A stretch of 42,117 nt of DNA from an uncultured Dehalococcoidales bacterium (GTDB lineage Bacteria; Chloroflexota; Dehalococcoidia; GIF9; UBA5629): assembly GCA_964510365.1 (NCBI GenBank), contig CAZEAR010000001.1, positions 1 through 42,117 of the forward strand, read 5' to 3'. Of this stretch, positions 15,127 through 24,285 are shown piece by piece (positions within the stretch are counted from its first letter, which is position 1; each line of letters begins with the position of its first letter). The position numbers were made by a program, and so were the translations under genes. The notes under the pieces are model-generated. The model saw only the letters and a program-made list of their open reading frames with translations, searched no databases and was not told the DNA's origin.

Positions 15127-16538
15127 TGGCGCAACAAAAACAGGATCCGAAGCCAAATACTACAAAAGCAGTAGCAAAAAAAACCACTGATCAGGAAATG
15201 CAGGATATCGCCAGAGAAAAACAAGCGGTCCCTTTACCGGCGGAATTCCAGGCCTTAGAAGTCGTCCGGCAGCGTGTCCGGGAGATCCGGGAATTCATAG
15301 CTCATGGGCTCCTGGAAAAAGGCGTTGATTATGGCCGGATTCCCGGAGTAAATAAGGATATGCTATTCAAAGCAGGATGCGAAATGCTCCTGCTTAATTA
15401 TAAAATAGCGGTAGATCCGCCGGAGATCGAGGACCGAAGCGATTGGGATAGAGGTATCTTCCGGTATCGCATCATATTACGCGGTTATAACAAAGATGAT
15501 CGAACATATGTCGGTATGGGAGTGGCTTCATGTAGTTCATATGAAGCAAAGTATCGTTATCGCTGGTTAGCTTCTTATCAACTCACTGATAGTATGCGGA
15601 AACTCGGCTTTAATCCGAAGACAAGTAAATTCGATGCGGAGTTATTAAAAGATATATGGATCACTCAACACGGAGATAATGCTTTCCGATTTAAAATGAT
15701 CAACGGTAAAGCGACTCCGCAATGGCGGATCGAAAACCCGGACATTTATGATCTGGAAAATACCATATTAAAACAGTCTATTACCAGGGCATTAAGAGCA
15801 TTGACATTGAATGTAACCGGAGCGGATCGACTATTTGTAAATGAAAGAGATCTTGAAAATCTCGGATTATCGGAAATCGATGATTCCGATTTTGTTGATG
15901 GAGAATACAAGGAAATGCCTGCCGAAGAAGCACCGGCACCTGTAGCGGAACCTACACCGGAACCGGCACCGATCGAGCCTGAGCCTGAGCCTACACCGGC
16001 ACCTATAGAAACACCGGCACCGACACCGGCCAATGCACAGCAACAAACAGATGGACAAATAAAACCGTCCCCGGCTCCATTATCTAAGCCGTCCATGGAA
16101 GAGCCGCAGAAGAGAATGTGTAAGAAGCATGGCGGCTATGAATTCAAGCAATATAGAACTCAAAATGGCCGTGTAGTTTGGGCTCATAAAGTCGGTAAAG
16201 ATGGGGAAGGGAATGATGTATGGTGTATGGAAGAGGATGTTGAAAGAGAATTTGCACAGAAGCAGCAACCATTACCGGAAACAACAGCCGCTGCAGCCGC
16301 CGCTCCTGCAGGTGATATCGGCGATGTCGATGCTATAGATGTGAAGGATGATAACGAATTCATAAGGAATTTGAATGAAGTCCTGGGTAAATTAGGCTGG
16401 AAAGATGGTGAATTCAATGCGTTTATTAATACGCATTATCCTACTTCCGGTACTGATAAGAGCCAGTTCCCGGTCCCAGTCCGTAAGCCAATGCTTAAAG
16501 ATCTCTATAGCATTTTGAAATCAAAAACTAATTCGTAG
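15126..16538 (+). CDS. Putative ssDNA-binding/annealing (recombinase-like) protein with a proline-rich linker and a C-terminal Cys/His domain
   Basis: 470 aa next to the exonuclease. The N-terminal domain has GVDYGRIPGVNKDMLFKAGCEMLL. The linker is EEAPAPVAEPTPEPAPIEPEPEPTPAPIETPAPTPA. Function is inferred mainly from gene context. Confidence 0.35.
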   Translation: MAQQKQDPKPNTTKAVAKKTTDQEMQDIAREKQAVPLPAEFQALEVVRQRVREIREFIAHGLLEKGVDYGRIPGVNKDMLFKAGCEMLLLNYKIAVDPPEIEDRSDWDRGIFRYRIILRGYNKDDRTYVGMGVASCSSYEAKYRYRWLASYQLTDSMRKLGFNPKTSKFDAELLKDIWITQHGDNAFRFKMINGKATPQWRIENPDIYDLENTILKQSITRALRALTLNVTGADRLFVNERDLENLGLSEIDDSDFVDGEYKEMPAEEAPAPVAEPTPEPAPIEPEPEPTPAPIETPAPTPANAQQQTDGQIKPSPAPLSKPSMEEPQKRMCKKHGGYEFKQYRTQNGRVVWAHKVGKDGEGNDVWCMEEDVEREFAQKQQPLPETTAAAAAAPAGDIGDVDAIDVKDDNEFIRNLNEVLGKLGWKDGEFNAFINTHYPTSGTDKSQFPVPVRKPMLKDLYSILKSKTNS

Positions 16539-17422: not shown

Positions 17423-18100
17423 TTGGCTAATATACAGCCAGATAAATATACCAGACTCCCGAATAACATTTATGATAAATTATGCCACTTCAGGATCCCA
17501 GGGGAAATACGGCAGGTATTTGATGTTATAGCAAGAAAAACATTTGGATGGAATAAAAAAAAGGATCGAATTTCATTGTCACAATTTGTTGAATTAACTG
17601 AAATAAAAAAGCCGAATATCACCAGAGCGTTATCAAAACTGATAACGAATAATATCGTTATCAAAACTGATAATAATTCGTATTCAATAAATGAAAATTA
17701 TGAAAACTGGAAGCCATTTGTTATCAAAACTGATAACGCAAAAAAGTTATCAAAACTGATAACGAATGTTATCAAAACTGATAATAAAACGTTATCAGAA
17801 CTGATACCCACAAAAGAAAAGAAAAACACTAAACAAAAGACAAGGATAAAAAATATTAAAATCCCTGATTTTATCAACCGAGAAGTATGGATCGCTTTTG
17901 TGGAAATGCGAAAAGAGATAAAACATCCTGTAACAGAATATGCTGCAAAGCTATTATTTAAAAAACTGGGGGATCTACGAGCTCAGGGGAATGATCCGAA
18001 TGAAGTATTAAACCAGTCTATCATGCACAGCTGGCGCGGAGTATTCGCTTTGAAAGATGATATAACTGAAAAAAAGCCAAGGATAAAAGAAATTGAGTAA
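17423..18100 (+). CDS. Replication initiator / replisome organiser (lambda O N-terminal-domain-like)
   Basis: TTG start 7 nt after AGGAG. YTRLPNNIYDKL...VFDVIARKTFGWNKKKDRISLSQFVELTEI matches the phage Rep-O N-domain pattern. The gene body contains the iteron array. Confidence 0.65.
   Translation: MANIQPDKYTRLPNNIYDKLCHFRIPGEIRQVFDVIARKTFGWNKKKDRISLSQFVELTEIKKPNITRALSKLITNNIVIKTDNNSYSINENYENWKPFVIKTDNAKKLSKLITNVIKTDNKTLSELIPTKEKKNTKQKTRIKNIKIPDFINREVWIAFVEMRKEIKHPVTEYAAKLLFKKLGDLRAQGNDPNEVLNQSIMHSWRGVFALKDDITEKKPRIKEIE
17629..17807. repeat. Origin-type iteron array: six copies of GTTATCAAAACTGATAA (each a TTATCA-N4-TGATAA palindrome)
   Basis: Copies at 17629-45, 17657-73, 17720-36, 17746-62 and 17768-84, plus a degenerate copy at 17791-807, followed by an A-rich tract at 17810-17860. 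Confidence 0.8.
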
Positions 18101-20347: not shown

Positions 20348-20794
20348 GTGAAGGAAAGCACAGGAAGAATAAAGGCCATTGTAAAAGCCATGCCGAAAGT
20401 CAAGAATCAGTTACACGGAAAGAACTGGAAAATTGATTACCAGGCATACTCATTCTTCCGGGAAGCTGTTAAATACTTCCGGCAGTATACCGGCCGGGCC
20501 TTCGATAAAAAGCTGAAGGCTTGGCTTTTTTTTAACCAGGAAAGAAGGTTAAAAGCTAATGAGTACCTGCAGTTTGTAGAGTTATTCGATGCTTGCGCGG
20601 AGATCCGGAACATGGACTGTAAAAAAGAATGTCCGGACTATAAAACCTGTATGGATCTGTTCGAGATCATATCGAATAAGTCCGACTATTCACCGGCAAA
20701 AGTAAACGGCTATGGGAAAGAGATCTTCCCACAGCCGTTCGCTGTTCATGGCCAGGCTAAAGAAGTTTTAAAGTTATTGGATCTGAGATTCTGA
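20348..20794 (+). CDS. Hypothetical protein
   Basis: 148-aa ORF with a GTG start. Last plus-strand gene of the early module; its 3' end overlaps the convergent RHH gene by 21 nt. Confidence 0.4.
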   Translation: MKESTGRIKAIVKAMPKVKNQLHGKNWKIDYQAYSFFREAVKYFRQYTGRAFDKKLKAWLFFNQERRLKANEYLQFVELFDACAEIRNMDCKKECPDYKTCMDLFEIISNKSDYSPAKVNGYGKEIFPQPFAVHGQAKEVLKLLDLRF

Positions 20795-21010
20795 AGGCCC
20801 TGGGATAACTTCTAGATCTTCCTGATCCGGTGCCGTCCAGCCGAGCTCCGCGCATCTAGTCATTGCTACTTTATCGAGATCCAGGGCTATTTCGATCGCG
20901 GCCGTAACAAATCCCTTTAAAGTAGCATCTTGCTCAATACAAGCCAGCTTGACACGCTTCAATAGCTCGTTATCGATCCAGATATTAAGTTGTGTTTCGT
21001 TATCGCTCAT
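20774..21010 (-). CDS. Ribbon-helix-helix (CopG/Arc-like) DNA-binding protein
   Basis: MSDNETQLNIWIDNELLKRVKLACIEQDATLKGFVTAAIEIAL has a beta-strand-helix-helix pattern. ATG 21010-21008 overlaps the upstream stop (ATGA), so the longer ORF-track start at 21124 is not used. Confidence 0.6.
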   Translation of the reverse strand: MSDNETQLNIWIDNELLKRVKLACIEQDATLKGFVTAAIEIALDLDKVAMTRCAELGWTAPDQEDLEVIPGPSESQIQ

Positions 21011-21645
21011 GATTGTACACCTGTCATTATTTCTATAGCTTGCCGGACAGCCGGTAATAGGTGAGGATATGAAAGAACTTGTTTTGCATATTTTTTGGCT
21101 ATTGGTAATATCTGAGGCCAACAAGAACTGTCATTTTTTATTATGTTTCTAAGTTCATCAATGTCATTTATCGGCTCTAATTGAGCAAGCCAGAAGTTAC
21201 GCTCATGATAATAAGTTGGAGTAAATCGTATAATTTTAGTTTTGATTTTTTTAGTGTCTACTATCTGGAATGAAGCATTCTGATACTCGCCGACTTTCTG
21301 AGACCAGCCGACTTCCTGATACTCGCCGACTTTCTGATACTCGCCGACTTTCTGATACTCGCCGACTTCCTGATACCCGCCGACTTCCTGATACCCGCCG
21401 ACTTCCTGATACTCGCCGACTTTCTGATACCCGCCGACTTTCTGAGACTCGCCGACTTTCTGATACCCGCCGACTTTATCTATCCTTTCTATAATATATG
21501 ATTTATGTACGAAGATAGATTTCTTTGCATTTACTGAGATAGCTTTTAATGATCCTGTGATCTCAACTTCATTCTCGAATACAAGTTTGCCTTTAAATTC
21601 AAGATCGCCTTCTATTTTTGTTTCAGTTATTATTTTACTTTCCAT
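21007..21645 (-). CDS. Hexapeptide tandem-repeat protein (bactofilin/beta-helix-like N-terminal part, 11 x VG(G/E)YQ(K/E), unrelated C-terminal domain)
   Basis: 212 aa; the repeat block is VGGYQKVGESQKVGGYQKVGEYQEVGGYQEVGGYQEVGEYQKVGEYQKVGEYQEVGWSQKVGEYQ. Confidence 0.6.
   Translation of the reverse strand: MESKIITETKIEGDLEFKGKLVFENEVEITGSLKAISVNAKKSIFVHKSYIIERIDKVGGYQKVGESQKVGGYQKVGEYQEVGGYQEVGGYQEVGEYQKVGEYQKVGEYQEVGWSQKVGEYQNASFQIVDTKKIKTKIIRFTPTYYHERNFWLAQLEPINDIDELRNIIKNDSSCWPQILPIAKKYAKQVLSYPHLLPAVRQAIEIMTGVQS
21280..21477. repeat. 11 x 18-bp near-perfect tandem repeat (CTGATAC(T/C)CGCCGACTT(T/C) on the plus strand)
   Basis: Units start every 18 nt from 21280 and differ at only 1-4 positions. 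The repeat lies inside the minus-strand CDS 21007..21645. Confidence 0.95.
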
Positions 21646-21646
21646 A

Positions 21647-21997
21647 TTATCCCCTTTCTTCTTTGACAGTTACATCATGGCCACACATAGGACAAATCAG
21701 TATTATTGCATGATCGCCGCTGTACGCTTGCCAATCCGGGCCGAATTCATGGCCACATTCCCGGCAGGTTGTTATATGATTCCCCAGGATCAACCAGCCT
21801 TCCGGCGCGATGTATAAATGATCCGTCCGGGCCAGGTAATCATCAGCGGCTTTGTTGATCGCTTCCGGCGAAGCACAGCAGCCGAATACCCCGACAGTGG
21901 AACCTGTCCGGGAGTCAACAATCAATAGATTGTGATCATCTTCTTTGGTGATCAGTCCGGCCAGGATCTGTTTTTTAGTTAATATTGTTTTACTCAT
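21647..21997 (-). CDS. Hypothetical protein with a C-terminal zinc ribbon
   Basis: CRECGH...CPMCGH, preceded by the conserved CGAAAGGAAAGGGGAA leader. Confidence 0.5.
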   Translation of the reverse strand: MSKTILTKKQILAGLITKEDDHNLLIVDSRTGSTVGVFGCCASPEAINKAADDYLARTDHLYIAPEGWLILGNHITTCRECGHEFGPDWQAYSGDHAIILICPMCGHDVTVKEERG

Positions 21998-22085
21998 TTT
22001 TCCCCTTTCCTTTCGTTATTGAGCTTTGATCCGCTCATTTCCGGCCCGGAGCTCCGCGGATCCGCTCCGGGACAGAATGAATTGA

Positions 22086-22841
22086 TCACTTCCCGATCAT
22101 CTTTTTAAGCAATGTTTTGTATATACAGCATCCTTCCGCGAGTGTTAATCTTTTACCGGGATTATGGCCGTTATATGAGCATGTTAAATTATCAAAAAGC
22201 ATAAGCGGGATATTGTTCAAATTCGAATCTATTTCAAATCTAGCCTGTAAATCTTCAATCCCGCTCAGGCCGAATAACTTCAGATCACCTTCATTTATTG
22301 CTATATGATGGATCCCGGCCATGTAACGGTAATACTGATCATGCGATACTTTCCCGCTCATGTAGTCTTCCCGGGTAATAGGTGCCGCTTCTTCTTCATA
22401 GTTATATTCCGGGAGTGTCCACTTCTCAGGATCCATACCGGCCCGCTTGTAGAGATCCCCGGCCGCTTTGTATATATTGCTGTAATAGTGTCCCCAATAA
22501 GTAGACATGAAGTTGTCGGCCTGATGTGTAACGAACGGCTGCCCGCCGTCCGGGATCATTGAAAGTATAATCCAGGCTTCGGGATCCGTTTGATGTCCCA
22601 AACGAGCAATTAATATATTACCGTTTGGCATATGATCACCGATTTTATACTCCGGGACTGTCTTTTTATTCATTCCGGGGATCTTCTTTATTTTTTCCGG
22701 TAAACATTCTTTATGGTATTTAAAGCCTTCGAAGCAATACCATTTGTCGCCGGTGTCACTTCCGCAACCATTACACGTTCCCATACCCTTTTGAATTGTG
22801 ATGTCGCCGTATTCAGTTTTAATTTTTGTAATAGTTCTCAT
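22086..22841 (-). CDS. Hypothetical protein (N-terminal Cys cluster)
   Basis: 251 aa with CNGCGS...YCFEGFKYHKEC, preceded by a variant of the conserved purine-rich leader. Confidence 0.5.
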   Translation of the reverse strand: MRTITKIKTEYGDITIQKGMGTCNGCGSDTGDKWYCFEGFKYHKECLPEKIKKIPGMNKKTVPEYKIGDHMPNGNILIARLGHQTDPEAWIILSMIPDGGQPFVTHQADNFMSTYWGHYYSNIYKAAGDLYKRAGMDPEKWTLPEYNYEEEAAPITREDYMSGKVSHDQYYRYMAGIHHIAINEGDLKLFGLSGIEDLQARFEIDSNLNNIPLMLFDNLTCSYNGHNPGKRLTLAEGCCIYKTLLKKMIGK

Positions 22842-22904
22842 TTCTTCCCTTTCCTTTCAACGGATCCGGGCCAGGATCCCCGGCCCGGCCGCCGCTTTAT
22901 CGTT

Positions 22905-23255
22905 TTATGATACTGTTTCCGTTTGGGTAATATCGAATACAGTGGCAATATAGTATCGATCAACAGTAATAATATTTTCTTCTTCATCTTTATCGCCGAC
23001 CGGGAACCAAATAATCATGCCATGCTCGCCGCGCTTTACTTGCCGTTGAGCTCGTTTCCATTGTTGGTACCCGCCGACCACTGTCGGCGCATCCTGGGAT
23101 TGAAAATAGCAAAGGATTGTATTACCAGGTGATAATACATGACCGTCAATAGTTGAGATCATGCCGCGCTTAATGAATTGATTCCTTTGCTCCTGGGTAA
23201 GATTTTTTAGTTGTTCGCGAAGCTGTTTAACCTTCGCTTTCCGCTCGTGTGTCAT
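22905..23255 (-). CDS. ArdC N-terminal-domain-like (DUF1738-type) ssDNA-binding protein, an anti-restriction candidate
   Basis: LSPGNTILCYF...GGYQQWKRAQRQVKRGEHGMIIWFPV parallels the ArdC pattern YSGINVLLL...LTFKQA..LGG.VRKGEKG. First gene of the minus-strand operon. Confidence 0.5.
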   Translation of the reverse strand: MTHERKAKVKQLREQLKNLTQEQRNQFIKRGMISTIDGHVLSPGNTILCYFQSQDAPTVVGGYQQWKRAQRQVKRGEHGMIIWFPVGDKDEEENIITVDRYYIATVFDITQTETVS

Positions 23256-23301: not shown

Positions 23302-23331
23302 ATTATAAATCTATAAATCTAGATTTGTCAA
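23302..23331 (-). promoter_or_regulatory. Consensus sigma70 promoter for the minus-strand operon, overlapped by palindromic operators
   Basis: On the minus strand: TTGACA (23331-26), an 18-nt spacer, then TATAAT (23307-02). The spacer contains the 12-bp palindrome AAATCTAGATTT (23315-26). Confidence 0.65.
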
Positions 23332-23409: not shown

Positions 23410-24285
23410 ATGGTCAACGTTCGATCAGGCAAGAGATCCGGGCAGCCGGGACTATTAACACCGGCCAGGGCCGCTATTATCGTTTCAGCTTTAAAAAAAC
23501 ATAATTACATTTCAACAGCCTGCGAGCTCGTGGGGATCTCTAGATCTACTTATAACGACTGGATCCATAAAGGGAACGACTATAAATCTAGACTTCTAAA
23601 TAATGAAGACATTAACAAAGAAGACTATAAGTATATACACTTCGCCGAAGATTGCGAGCGAGCGCGGGCAGGATCCGAAAAAAATCTACTTGGCCGGATC
23701 GATTCAGCCGGATCAGATCGGCAGCTTATCGAGCGGCGAACGATCGTACATACTCTGAAAGATGGAACAGAAAAAAGCGAAACAATAGAACGATGGAAGC
23801 CTGCTGACTGGCAAGCTAATGCCTGGATCCTGGAGCGTACAAGATGGGAAAAATTCGGCCAGCATTCAAGCCTGGATATCCAAAGCGCGGGAGTGATATT
23901 TATCGAGCAATTACAGCGGGCCAGGGACTCAAAGATAATAGAGGGACAATTCCGGGAGATCGAATCTATACAGGATCAGGCAATACCGGAAGAGATCCCG
24001 CCGCCTGCAATAATCGCCATGGCTTCCCAGGCTGATATACACGAGCAAGAAGCGGCAAAACGGCCAATTATGGCCCTGGTATCTAAGAGTAAACAGGCAA
24101 AACAGGGTAATTATGTCAACCAATTGAAGCTAACTTCGCATATGCGCACTTATACGAAGTGTCACGATCAAAACGAAGCTAAAATACCCTTTAATCCGGC
24201 CATTGATCCGATTGTGGAAGAAGTAGATCCGGGAGATCAGATAATTGAAATACCTATCGATACAGATACAGATAACAGTAAGTAA
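23410..24285 (+). CDS. HTH-domain protein, small-terminase (TerS) candidate
   Basis: The N-terminal GQPGLLTPARAAIIVSALKKHNYISTACELVGISRSTYNDWIHKG resembles the TerS-type HTH. First gene of the packaging/head transcription unit. Confidence 0.45.
   Translation: MVNVRSGKRSGQPGLLTPARAAIIVSALKKHNYISTACELVGISRSTYNDWIHKGNDYKSRLLNNEDINKEDYKYIHFAEDCERARAGSEKNLLGRIDSAGSDRQLIERRTIVHTLKDGTEKSETIERWKPADWQANAWILERTRWEKFGQHSSLDIQSAGVIFIEQLQRARDSKIIEGQFREIESIQDQAIPEEIPPPAIIAMASQADIHEQEAAKRPIMALVSKSKQAKQGNYVNQLKLTSHMRTYTKCHDQNEAKIPFNPAIDPIVEEVDPGDQIIEIPIDTDTDNSK

What the first reader, a model, noticed from the sequence alone, without database searches (positions are those of the whole stretch)
21280..21477. 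Near-perfect 11 x 18-bp tandem repeat encoding VG(G/E)YQ(K/E) hexapeptides in a minus-strand early gene
Eleven head-to-tail 18-bp units differ by only 1-4 bases, so the array is evolutionarily young or homogenised and is prone to slippage (copy-number variation in 6-aa steps). The [V]-G-x-x-x-x periodicity is that of left-handed beta-helix hexapeptide repeats. The preceding segment (IEGDLEFKGKLVFENEVEITGSLKAISV) looks bactofilin/beta-helix-like, and the C-terminal 90 aa are unrelated. A length-variable beta-helical rod in the early operon, next to an RHH regulator and an ArdC-like protein, could be a spacer, decoy or filament-forming host-takeover factor.
Basis: partly seen in the sequence, partly recalled or inferred. 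Interest (0 to 1): 0.65.

Follow-up and report, generated by a model that had tools for sequence, protein, structure and literature searches.

The report
Length-variable beta-solenoid phage protein repeat
The 11 x 18-bp repeat is real and encodes the variable-length middle section of a beta-solenoid rod protein from a rare, unnamed, mostly phage-borne family, whose repeat number differs between near-identical assembled genomes; its function is unknown.

Summary
There are eleven in-frame 18-bp units at 21277-21474 (-), inside a 212-aa gene (21007-21645). The gene is third in a five-gene minus-strand cassette behind a perfect sigma-70 promoter.

It is a protein-level repeat. All 26 homologues first found carry the same N-terminal cap followed by 2 to about 25 hexapeptides. 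Over 230 units, position 1 is V or I in 100%, position 2 is G in 93%, and position 5 is Q in 99.6%. Positions 3, 4 and 6 vary.

AlphaFold2 (pLDDT 88) predicts a beta-solenoid of one short strand per unit, capped by a five-helix C-terminal domain. That domain alone models at pLDDT 95 and has no match in the PDB.

Genomes with 98.4-99.9% identical flanks carry 4/12/22, 10/18/19 or 6/23 units.

Relatives give weak bactofilin and FapA matches rather than left-handed hexapeptide-transferase matches. The window protein itself matches no family.

Within arrays, variation is almost entirely nonsynonymous, and codon choice is unusually conserved between lineages. That is unexplained.

Function is unknown. 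My best guess is a length-tolerant scaffold or display rod for an early protein that interacts with host or phage partners. The origin, centromere, enzyme and DNA-mimic readings are disfavoured.

The parts
21277..21474 (-). Eleven 18-bp units in codon register, encoding residues 58-123: V-G-[G/E/W]-[Y/S]-Q-[K/E/N]
21007..21645 (-). Gene for the 212-aa repeat protein. A Shine-Dalgarno-like AGGGG lies upstream. The start codon is 1 nt after the stop of the upstream gene, and the stop overlaps the downstream start (ATGA).
   Evidence: homologues
21475..21645 (-). N-terminal cap domain (residues 1-57, TKIEGDLEFKGKLVFENEVEITGSL...KSIFVHKSY) built of G-x-hydrophobic-x-hydrophobic-x hexads. It is conserved in both C-terminal types of the family.
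21010..21276 (-). C-terminal domain (residues ~124-212; as modelled it starts at the last unit, residue 118): one strand plus five helices. E148, R149 and W152 are invariant across the 27 C-domains in A2. YHERNFW, CW and PAVRQAIE are conserved among close relatives. No known relative.
23302..23331 (-). Perfect sigma-70 consensus promoter (TTGACA-18-TATAAT, 12/12) upstream of the five-gene minus-strand cassette
21647..21997 (-). Upstream cassette gene: 116-aa zinc-ribbon-like protein (two CxxC pairs)
20774..21010 (-). Downstream cassette gene: 78-aa ribbon-helix-helix-like protein (weak call)
22905..23255 (-). First cassette gene: 116-aa protein resembling the ArdC N-terminal domain
22086..22841 (-). 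Second cassette gene: 251-aa protein with no family match

Best explanation
The array is coding sequence. Each 18-bp unit adds one six-residue side to a single-chain beta-solenoid rod: a four-residue strand (x4-Q5-x6-V1) plus a G2-x3 corner.

Inferred structure:
- Val1 and Gln5 point into the core. Gln5 is replaced by Leu or Ile in variant subfamilies.
- Gly2 makes the turn.
- Residues 3, 4 and 6 (G/E/W/R, Y/S/F, E/K/T) are displayed on the surface.
- A conserved 57-residue bactofilin/FapA-like cap starts the rod, and a conserved five-helix domain of unknown fold ends it.

Evolution: the array changes by slippage or unequal recombination much faster than its flanks. Length therefore varies from 2 to about 25 units in any rotational phase, while the core residues stay fixed.

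Inferred expression: the gene is transcribed by host RNA polymerase from a consensus promoter, together with four other small accessory genes.

Most likely role (inference only): a rigid, length-tolerant scaffold or display rod. Its conserved end domains bind a host or phage partner, and its exposed face is free to diversify or is selected to do so.
For: Repeat and frame.

Family: all 26 homologues share the cap plus VGxxQx units, with two alternative C-termini. Residue frequencies over 230 units are V/I 100%, G 93% and Q 99.6%.

Protein-level constraint:
- Lineages switch synonymous codons (GTT, GGT, GGA, CAA, GAG/AAG) but keep V-G-x-x-Q-x.
- An AT-rich relative (L024) keeps the hexad with entirely different codons.
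- Q-to-L/I subfamilies exist.

Structure: AF2 gives pLDDT 88.3 with a strand every six residues and then helices. The C-domain alone gives pLDDT 95.3 and pTM 0.86.

Modularity: the same C-domain follows pentapeptide repeats or GxIxxx hexads in other proteins.

Length variation: flanks 98.4-99.9% identical, arrays differing by 3 to 18 units. Unit counts modulo 3 are 8/10/8 (counted).

Fold class: FapA and Bactofilin weak matches in 17 of 39 relatives each. Distant profile hits exceed the Bactofilin cut-off.

Promoter.
Against: - The window protein matches no Pfam, NCBIfam or PADLOC model. Its only PHROG match is weak (E 0.0078, unknown function).
- Foldseek found nothing significant in the PDB or BFVD.
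- No gene neighbour is conserved across lineages, so function has no contextual support.
- Charge is not conserved in the whole protein or in the C-domain.
- Third codon positions are the least variable sites within arrays, and whole 18-nt units are identical between lineages whose flanks have saturated synonymous sites. A purely protein-level account does not predict this.
- Copy numbers come from short-read assemblies.
Confidence: 0.7

Rival explanations
1. The length and surface variation is neutral. The array is a slippage-prone, low-complexity insert tolerated between two functional domains, and it has no role of its own.
For: Any unit number from 2 to ~25 and any rotational phase occurs. 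Differences between near-identical genomes mostly re-sort existing unit types. There is no charge periodicity at a three-unit lag. Some family members have almost no solenoid before the C-domain (P0028, P0033).
Against: No array has drifted to a single unit type despite fast turnover. The same alternatives (G/E/W/R, Y/S/F, K/E/T) persist in lineages only about 45% identical in their flanks. Gln5 is invariant in 229 of 230 units.
Confidence: 0.3
2. The rod polymerises end to end like a bactofilin, forming a phage cytoskeletal or positioning filament.
For: There are weak Bactofilin and FapA matches across the family. Bactofilin BacA is among the Foldseek hits, but not significantly (TM 0.40, E 3.1). 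One relative sits next to an actin-like segregation gene.
Against: The window protein does not match Bactofilin at E <= 1. The C-terminal end is capped by a helical domain, which would block one polymerisation interface. The actin-like neighbour is seen in only one lineage.
Confidence: 0.15
3. The rod is a DNA-mimic or anti-restriction factor, by analogy with pentapeptide-repeat proteins such as Qnr and MfpA.
For: The same C-domain is fused to genuine pentapeptide repeats in P0032 and P0034 (Pfam 1e-36 and 1.6e-26). An ArdC-N-like gene sits in the same cassette. The array segment is mildly acidic (pI 4.64).
Against: The whole protein has pI 6.85. Family pI values range from 4.6 to 9.5. There is no PADLOC match.
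Confidence: 0.08
4. The 18-bp units act at the DNA level, as iterons, a partition centromere, or an operator array for the adjacent RHH-like protein, and happen to lie in an open frame.
For: Unit length and tandem order resemble iterons or parC. Codon choice is unusually conserved: GTC is the Val codon in 10 of 13 lineages although it makes up only 7-24% of Val codons in those genomes. Array consensus codon identity is 0.63 against 0.42 in the flanks. An RHH-like gene overlaps the stop codon.
Against: Between lineages, the substitutions preserve the peptide, not the DNA. The variable nucleotides are first and second codon positions, and they yield a recurring set of residues. A better origin candidate exists: 22-bp repeats inside the O-like gene at 17720-17806. 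In L020 the actin-like gene has its own palindromic repeats. The RHH-like neighbour is absent from the other loci.
Confidence: 0.07
5. The array, or its copy number, is an assembly artefact.
For: Five of 14 related contigs end inside the array. The shortest alleles come from k141-named (MEGAHIT-style) contigs, where collapse is plausible.
Against: Arrays occur in more than 20 independent assemblies from several sources, and always in frame. Alleles differ in unit composition as well as number. The window array contains 7 distinct unit sequences.
Confidence: 0.05

Closest known systems
Bactofilin (PF04519), FapA beta-solenoid (PF03961) and MinC C-terminal domain (PF03775)
   Same: The cap domain is built of six-residue sides with a G-x-hydrophobic-x-hydrophobic-x pattern. 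Weak matches occur in 17 (Bactofilin), 17 (FapA) and 4 (MinC_C) of 39 relatives. More distant profile hits pass the Bactofilin cut-off.
   Different: The window protein gives no match. The repeat has a different register (V-G-x-x-Q-x) with an invariant Gln. It is a near-perfect variable-number repeat, is capped by an unrelated helical domain, and is found mostly in phage genomes.
Left-handed beta-helix hexapeptide transferases (PF00132; LpxA, LpxD, GlmU)
   Same: The hexad has an aliphatic residue followed by Gly. These proteins are the top Foldseek PDB hits, though not significantly. Two relatives give weak NCBIfam hits to LpxD or LpxA.
   Different: Hexapep matched only 1 of 39 relatives, at E 0.14. 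TM is about 0.2. Position i+4 is Gln rather than Ser, Thr, Ala or Val. There are no transferase features.
Pentapeptide-repeat proteins (PF00805; Qnr, MfpA)
   Same: They are repeat-built beta-solenoid rods. In P0032 and P0034 a pentapeptide rod replaces the hexapeptide rod in front of the same C-domain.
   Different: The unit is five residues and the helix is four-sided. The acidic DNA-like surface is not conserved here.
NeuO poly-psi repeat of prophage CUS-3 (PMC3046976)
   Same: It is a prophage gene for a beta-helix protein with a variable-number tandem repeat. The phase-variable, prophage-encoded enzyme is described in the abstract listed. The repeat details come from my own knowledge.
   Different: As I recall, the NeuO unit is 7 nt and switches the gene on and off. 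Here the unit is 18 nt, always in frame, and forms part of the solenoid itself.
Origin iterons inside lambda O-type genes, and plasmid parC or iteron arrays
   Same: They are tandem 18-22-bp units lying inside an open reading frame near the replication module.
   Different: Here the constraint follows the peptide across lineages. The window has a separate iteron-like array inside its O-like gene.

Membership tests
Bactofilin / FapA beta-solenoid superfamily | The query protein matches PF04519 or PF03961 at or above the gathering score | tested here: not met
   The window protein has no Pfam hit at E <= 1.
Bactofilin / FapA beta-solenoid superfamily | Homology traceable through intermediate sequences | tested here: inconclusive
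   17 of 39 relatives match Bactofilin and 17 match FapA at E <= 1, with best E 4.4e-6 and 3.4e-6. The scored matches seen in close relatives were below the cut-offs. Profile hits P0071, P0108, P0109, P0084 and P0105 exceed the 27.9-bit Bactofilin cut-off. A profile of the cap domain found no solved bactofilin.
Bactofilin / FapA beta-solenoid superfamily | Right-handed triangular beta-helix of about 18 residues per turn | tested here: inconclusive
   AF2 predicts one short strand per six residues. Foldseek to BacA 2n3d gives TM 0.40 and E 3.1.
Bactofilin / FapA beta-solenoid superfamily | End-to-end polymerisation into filaments | not testable with these tools
   This needs purified protein or imaging.
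Left-handed beta-helix hexapeptide transferases | [LIV]-[GAED]-X2-[STAV]-X hexad | tested here: not met
   Positions i and i+1 fit (V/I 100%, G 93%), but position i+4 is Gln in 229 of 230 units.
Left-handed beta-helix hexapeptide transferases | Match to PF00132, or a structural match to LpxA-type folds | tested here: not met
   Hexapep matched 1 of 39 relatives at E 0.14. The best Foldseek hit, LpxA, has E 0.22 and TM 0.20.
Pentapeptide-repeat proteins | Five-residue A(D/N)LXX period | tested here: not met
   The period is exactly six residues (18 nt).
Replication iterons / partition centromere | Sequence constraint acts on the DNA unit rather than on an encoded peptide | tested here: not met
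   Synonymous switches between lineages keep V-G-x-x-Q-x. The excess codon conservation remains unexplained.
Replication iterons / partition centromere | A cognate initiator or centromere-binding protein binds the units | not testable with these tools
   The RHH-like neighbour is a candidate only in this window and is absent from other loci.
Variable-number tandem repeat (contingency-type) coding locus | Copy number differs between otherwise near-identical genomes, in whole units | tested here: met
   L001 and L008 have flanks 99.94-99.95% identical and differ by 17 units. The L007/L012/L014 series carries 10/19/18 units, and P0004/L013/L015 carries 4/12/22, with flanks 98.4-99.6% identical. 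Caveat: these are short-read assemblies.

The most novel reading that the evidence does not exclude
The array may be a phage contingency locus with a dual role. First, as a hypermutable in-frame repeat, it would continually re-sort the length and displayed residues of an early host-interaction protein, helping it evade or engage variable host factors. Second, because its nucleotide sequence is kept nearly identical between distant phages, it would serve as a recombination joint that swaps N-terminal and C-terminal modules. This would explain the type A and type B C-termini behind the same cap, the cross-type similarity of cap domains, and the unusual conservation of codons.
Probability: 0.2. 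Interest if true: 0.75.

Novelty: new variant of a known kind. Interest (0 to 1): 0.55.

Why it matters
The finding defines an unannotated protein family that is rare: about 30 clusters among 5.8 billion. It is found mostly in phage genomes.

Four features stand out:
- a new solenoid repeat motif, V-G-x-x-Q-x, with an invariant and probably buried glutamine
- a confidently modelled C-terminal domain with no known structural relative
- extreme repeat-number variation between near-identical genomes
- an evolutionary signature that is the reverse of the usual one: within arrays third codon positions hardly vary, while first and second positions of three codons do.

If the variation is adaptive, this would be a phage counterpart of bacterial contingency loci, and a simple system for studying how solenoid length and surface evolve. 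If it is neutral, it is still a natural series of rods of graded length that could be useful for protein design.

Tried and rejected
- **Salt-bridge ladder.** In the window, position 6 reads KKK-EEE-KKE, which suggested salt bridges between turns at a three-unit period. Across 26 arrays there is no excess of opposite charges at lag 3 (z = 0.15). Rejected.
- **Fusion evidence for the zinc-ribbon neighbour.** P0010 carries N-terminal zinc ribbons, but they are not homologous to the upstream 116-aa protein (BLASTP E 0.38). Small Cys-rich genes are common nearby but are not orthologous. Rejected.
- **Replication origin.** The O-like gene at 17423-18100 carries its own 22-bp repeats in a low-GC block. 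Disfavoured.
- **Centromere for an actin-like segregation system.** This context is seen only in L020, where separate palindromic repeats lie directly upstream of the actin-like gene. Disfavoured.
- **Nucleic-acid binding by the C-domain.** It is basic in the window (pI 9.4), but the family ranges from 4.8 to 9.7. Not supported.
- **Acidic DNA mimic.** The protein's pI is 6.85. Not supported.
- **Overlapping gene.** Another frame (SAGIRK) or the antisense strand (RRLSDT) could in principle be read. These frames are open as a mechanical consequence of the repeat, and their peptides are not conserved where lineages switch codons, for example L005 and L013. Rejected.
- **Defence-system component.** No PADLOC match.
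- **Relatives among cultured phages.** None found by DNA or protein search. The large terminase is only about 24% identical to any phage in that collection.
- **Literature.** Three full-text searches found nothing on this family.

Full report
**Observation**

Tandem Repeats Finder reports one outstanding array in the window: 21278..21477, period 18, 11.1 copies, 90% matches, no indels, score 316. Read on the minus strand in codon register, the eleven units occupy 21277-21474. They encode VGGYQK, VGESQK, VGGYQK, VGEYQE, VGGYQE, VGGYQE, VGEYQK, VGEYQK, VGEYQE, VGWSQK and VGEYQN. A unit pattern with up to 3 mismatches finds 12 sites where shuffles give 0.10.

The array lies inside ORF 21007..21645 (-), 212 aa. 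The gene has a Shine-Dalgarno-like AGGGG. It starts one base after the stop of the upstream gene, and its stop overlaps the next start as ATGA. Units differ by 0-4 bases rather than 1-4, and S, W and N also occur.

**Setting**

The window looks like a tailed-phage genome read almost entirely on the plus strand. Assigned genes are:
- exonuclease-like genes (PHROG matches)
- a lambda O-type replication protein at 17423-18100
- a DnaB helicase
- RusA
- a small terminase at 23410-24285
- a large terminase only about 24% identical to any phage in the GenBank phage collection searched.

The repeat gene is the third gene of a five-gene minus-strand cassette at 20774-23255. In transcription order the cassette holds:
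- an ArdC-N-like protein (27.3 bits against a cut-off of 22.6)
- a 251-aa protein with no match
- a 116-aa zinc-ribbon-like protein
- the repeat protein
- a 78-aa protein that is only weakly RHH-like (Pfam E 0.027; PDB CopG E 0.83).

A perfect TTGACA-18-TATAAT promoter lies at 23331..23302 on the minus strand, just upstream of the cassette. This supports transcription by the host polymerase. 'Early' remains an inference.

**A protein repeat, not a DNA element**

The 212-aa protein has 26 homologues among 5.8 billion clustered proteins, all from metagenomes and all unnamed. Every one has the same N-terminal cap (TKIEGDxxFDGxxxFENDIEITGxL...KSIxVHxxY) followed by 2 to about 25 hexapeptides. They then carry one of two unrelated C-termini. 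Type A is the window's type. Type B is beta-rich.

Residue frequencies over 230 units from 26 arrays are:

| Position | Residues |
|---|---|
| 1 | V or I, 100% |
| 2 | G, 93% |
| 3 | G 46%, E 22%, W 15%, R 10% |
| 4 | Y 43%, S 38%, F 9% |
| 5 | Q, 229 of 230 |
| 6 | E 44%, K 33%, T 8% |

Several lineages use different synonymous codons for the fixed residues: GTT, GGT, GGA, CAA, and GAG/AAG. An AT-rich relative, L024, keeps an A/V-G-x-x-I-K hexad with entirely different codons. Sister subfamilies replace Gln5 with Leu or Ile. The constraint therefore follows the peptide in this frame.

The window also has a better origin candidate. A 22-bp repeat (3.7 copies) sits at 17720-17806, inside the O-like gene and in a low-GC block.

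**Structure**

AlphaFold2, run with a 12-sequence alignment, gives mean pLDDT 88.3. Residues 1-122 form short strands spaced every six residues. In the array each strand is x4-Q5-x6-V1 and each turn is G2-x3. One more strand follows at 134-140, then five helices at 145-208.

From strand alternation, and from the Q-to-L/I variants, I infer that Val1 and Gln5 face the core and that residues 3, 4 and 6 are exposed.

Foldseek finds nothing significant in the PDB or in BFVD. LpxA and LpxD lead the PDB list at E >= 0.2 and TM ~0.2. Bactofilin BacA has TM 0.40 at E 3.1.

The C-terminal domain modelled alone gives pLDDT 95.3 and pTM 0.86. It has no PDB fold match (best E 3.4) and no sequence match to solved structures. 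I therefore could not read handedness or residues per turn.

**Which solenoid class**

The window protein matches no Pfam model, even at E <= 1. Across 39 relatives, 17 give weak Bactofilin matches, 17 give weak FapA matches, and 4 give MinC_C matches. Hexapep appears once, at E 0.14.

More distant hits of the family profile exceed the Pfam Bactofilin cut-off. One of them also exceeds the FapA cut-off.

The cap domain follows the G-x-hydrophobic-x-hydrophobic-x register. The array follows V-G-x-x-Q-x. I therefore place the family beside the bactofilin/FapA solenoids rather than with the left-handed hexapeptide transferases. I do not file it as a member of either.

**Modularity**

An exhaustive profile search returned 99 proteins at E <= 0.001. 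The type A C-domain occurs in several arrangements:
- behind VGxxQx units
- behind GxIxxx-type hexads
- behind true pentapeptide repeats (P0032 at 1e-36 and P0034 at 1.6e-26)
- almost alone (P0028, P0033).

In the other direction, the same cap plus array precedes either type A or type B C-termini. The cap of the type B protein in L003 is 61-67% identical to caps of type A proteins, but only 54% identical to the type B cap in L005. Modules have evidently been exchanged at or near the array.

**Length variation**

| Allele series | Flank identity | Units |
|---|---|---|
| L001 / L008 | 99.94-99.95% over 12.6 kb | about 23 / 6 (differ by 17 units, 102 residues) |
| L007 / L014 / L012 | 98.7-99.6% outside the arrays | 10 / 18 / 19 |
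| P0004 / L013 / L015 | 98.4-98.6% (L013 against L015; no DNA was fetched for P0004) | 4 / 12 / 22 |
| P0009 / P0016 | 1 mismatch outside the indel (protein) | differ by 7 |
| P0018 / P0023 | identical outside the indel (protein) | differ by 3 |

Alleles differ in unit composition as well as number. The first and last units are stable and the interior changes.

Unit counts fall evenly into the three classes modulo 3 (8, 10 and 8; counted). Neither a whole number of turns nor a fixed orientation of the two end domains is required.

One caveat applies. These are short-read assemblies, and five of 14 related contigs end inside the array.

**An unusual evolutionary signature**

Within arrays, codons that deviate from the array majority are nonsynonymous 341 times and synonymous 33 times. 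Twelve of 18 arrays have no synonymous variant at all. The variable nucleotides are first and second positions of codons 3, 4 and 6.

Between lineages, codon identity at identical residues is 0.42 in the flanks but 0.63 for V1, G2 and Q5. GTC is the Val codon in 10 of 13 lineages, although it makes up only 7-24% of Val codons in those genomes. Whole 18-nt units are identical between the window, L007 and L001.

Concerted evolution explains the uniformity within arrays. The persistence of the same residue alternatives in all lineages suggests that a mixture of unit types is maintained.

The conservation of codons between lineages is not explained. Two candidates are recombination between phages inside the arrays and selection on the nucleotide sequence.

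**Function**

Nothing in the data assigns a function. Neighbouring genes are not conserved. Depending on the phage, the gene sits next to ERF and DnaB, a Prim-Pol primase, a methyltransferase and NinG, an actin-like protein, or a pentapeptide protein. One type B member lies among cellular housekeeping genes.

What the contexts share is the early replication and recombination region of phage genomes. There is no defence-system match. Neither the whole protein nor the C-domain has a conserved charge.

My best estimate is a rigid scaffold or display rod. Its conserved end domains would hold a partner, and its length and exposed face are tolerated or selected to vary. The neutral-insert, filament, DNA-mimic and DNA-element readings are ranked among the rival explanations.

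**Novelty**

Beta-solenoid repeat proteins and variable-number coding repeats are both known. Four things are new here: the V-G-x-x-Q-x motif, the C-terminal domain, the extent of length variation in a phage accessory gene, and the codon signature. I rate this a new variant of a known kind, of moderate interest.

Noticed in passing
window 17720-17806 (within 17423-18100, +): A 22-bp repeat, 3.7 copies (consensus GTTATCAAAACTGATAACGAAAAA, containing an inverted GTTATC/GATAAC pair), lies inside the gene matching phage replication protein O N-terminal domain (TIGR01610, 56.8 bits), in a block of GC 0.33. It is likely the replication origin.
   Followed up: partly
window 23302-23331 (-): A perfect sigma-70 consensus promoter (TTGACA, 18-nt spacer, TATAAT) reads into the minus-strand cassette and diverges from the small terminase gene. 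An 8-bp TATAAATC repeat overlaps it.
   Followed up: partly
window 23061-23078 (-): A twelfth, weak copy of the repeat unit (GTCGGCGGGTACCAACAA, 15 of 18 matches) lies inside the ArdC-N-like gene, where it encodes VGGYQQ. About 0.1 such matches are expected by chance in the whole window.
   Followed up: no
window 15930-16030 (within ORF 15126-16538, +): Short 6- and 12-bp repeats (GCACCGGAACCT and related) sit in a 470-aa ORF that matches only an unknown-function PHROG. This is probably a low-complexity linker.
   Followed up: no
L020 839-1834 and 752-822: In one relative the repeat gene is followed by an actin-like segregation protein (ALP_N, 67.8 bits). That gene has its own perfect 16-nt palindrome and direct repeats just upstream.
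   Followed up: partly
L005 5287-5988 and 6001-6789: A Pentapeptide_2 protein lies immediately upstream of a type B family member. The two share a near-identical C-terminal tail (MIEIDGxKxSxxTIKEALxExxN), which suggests a common short docking motif on different solenoids.
   Followed up: no
L003 / L004 (P0010 locus): A type B member with N-terminal zinc ribbons lies among cellular housekeeping genes (ribosomal protein L20, IF3, SmpB, adenylosuccinate synthase). The family is therefore not confined to phages.
   Followed up: no
L007 2905-5595 (also L012, L018): An 896-aa Prim-Pol primase carries LAGLIDADG / Hom_end homing-endonuclease (intein-type) matches and lies directly downstream of the repeat gene.
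   Followed up: no
L019 1-1192: This contig begins inside one array and ends inside another, read in a shifted frame. It reflects either two tandem repeat genes or an assembly wrap-around.
   Followed up: no
L011 (JBDRRI010000378.1): The only hit among 185,579 species-representative genomes is a 2-kb contig of a Candidatus Zixiibacteriota MAG, cut inside the array. It is a weak host clue or a mis-binned phage fragment.
   Followed up: no
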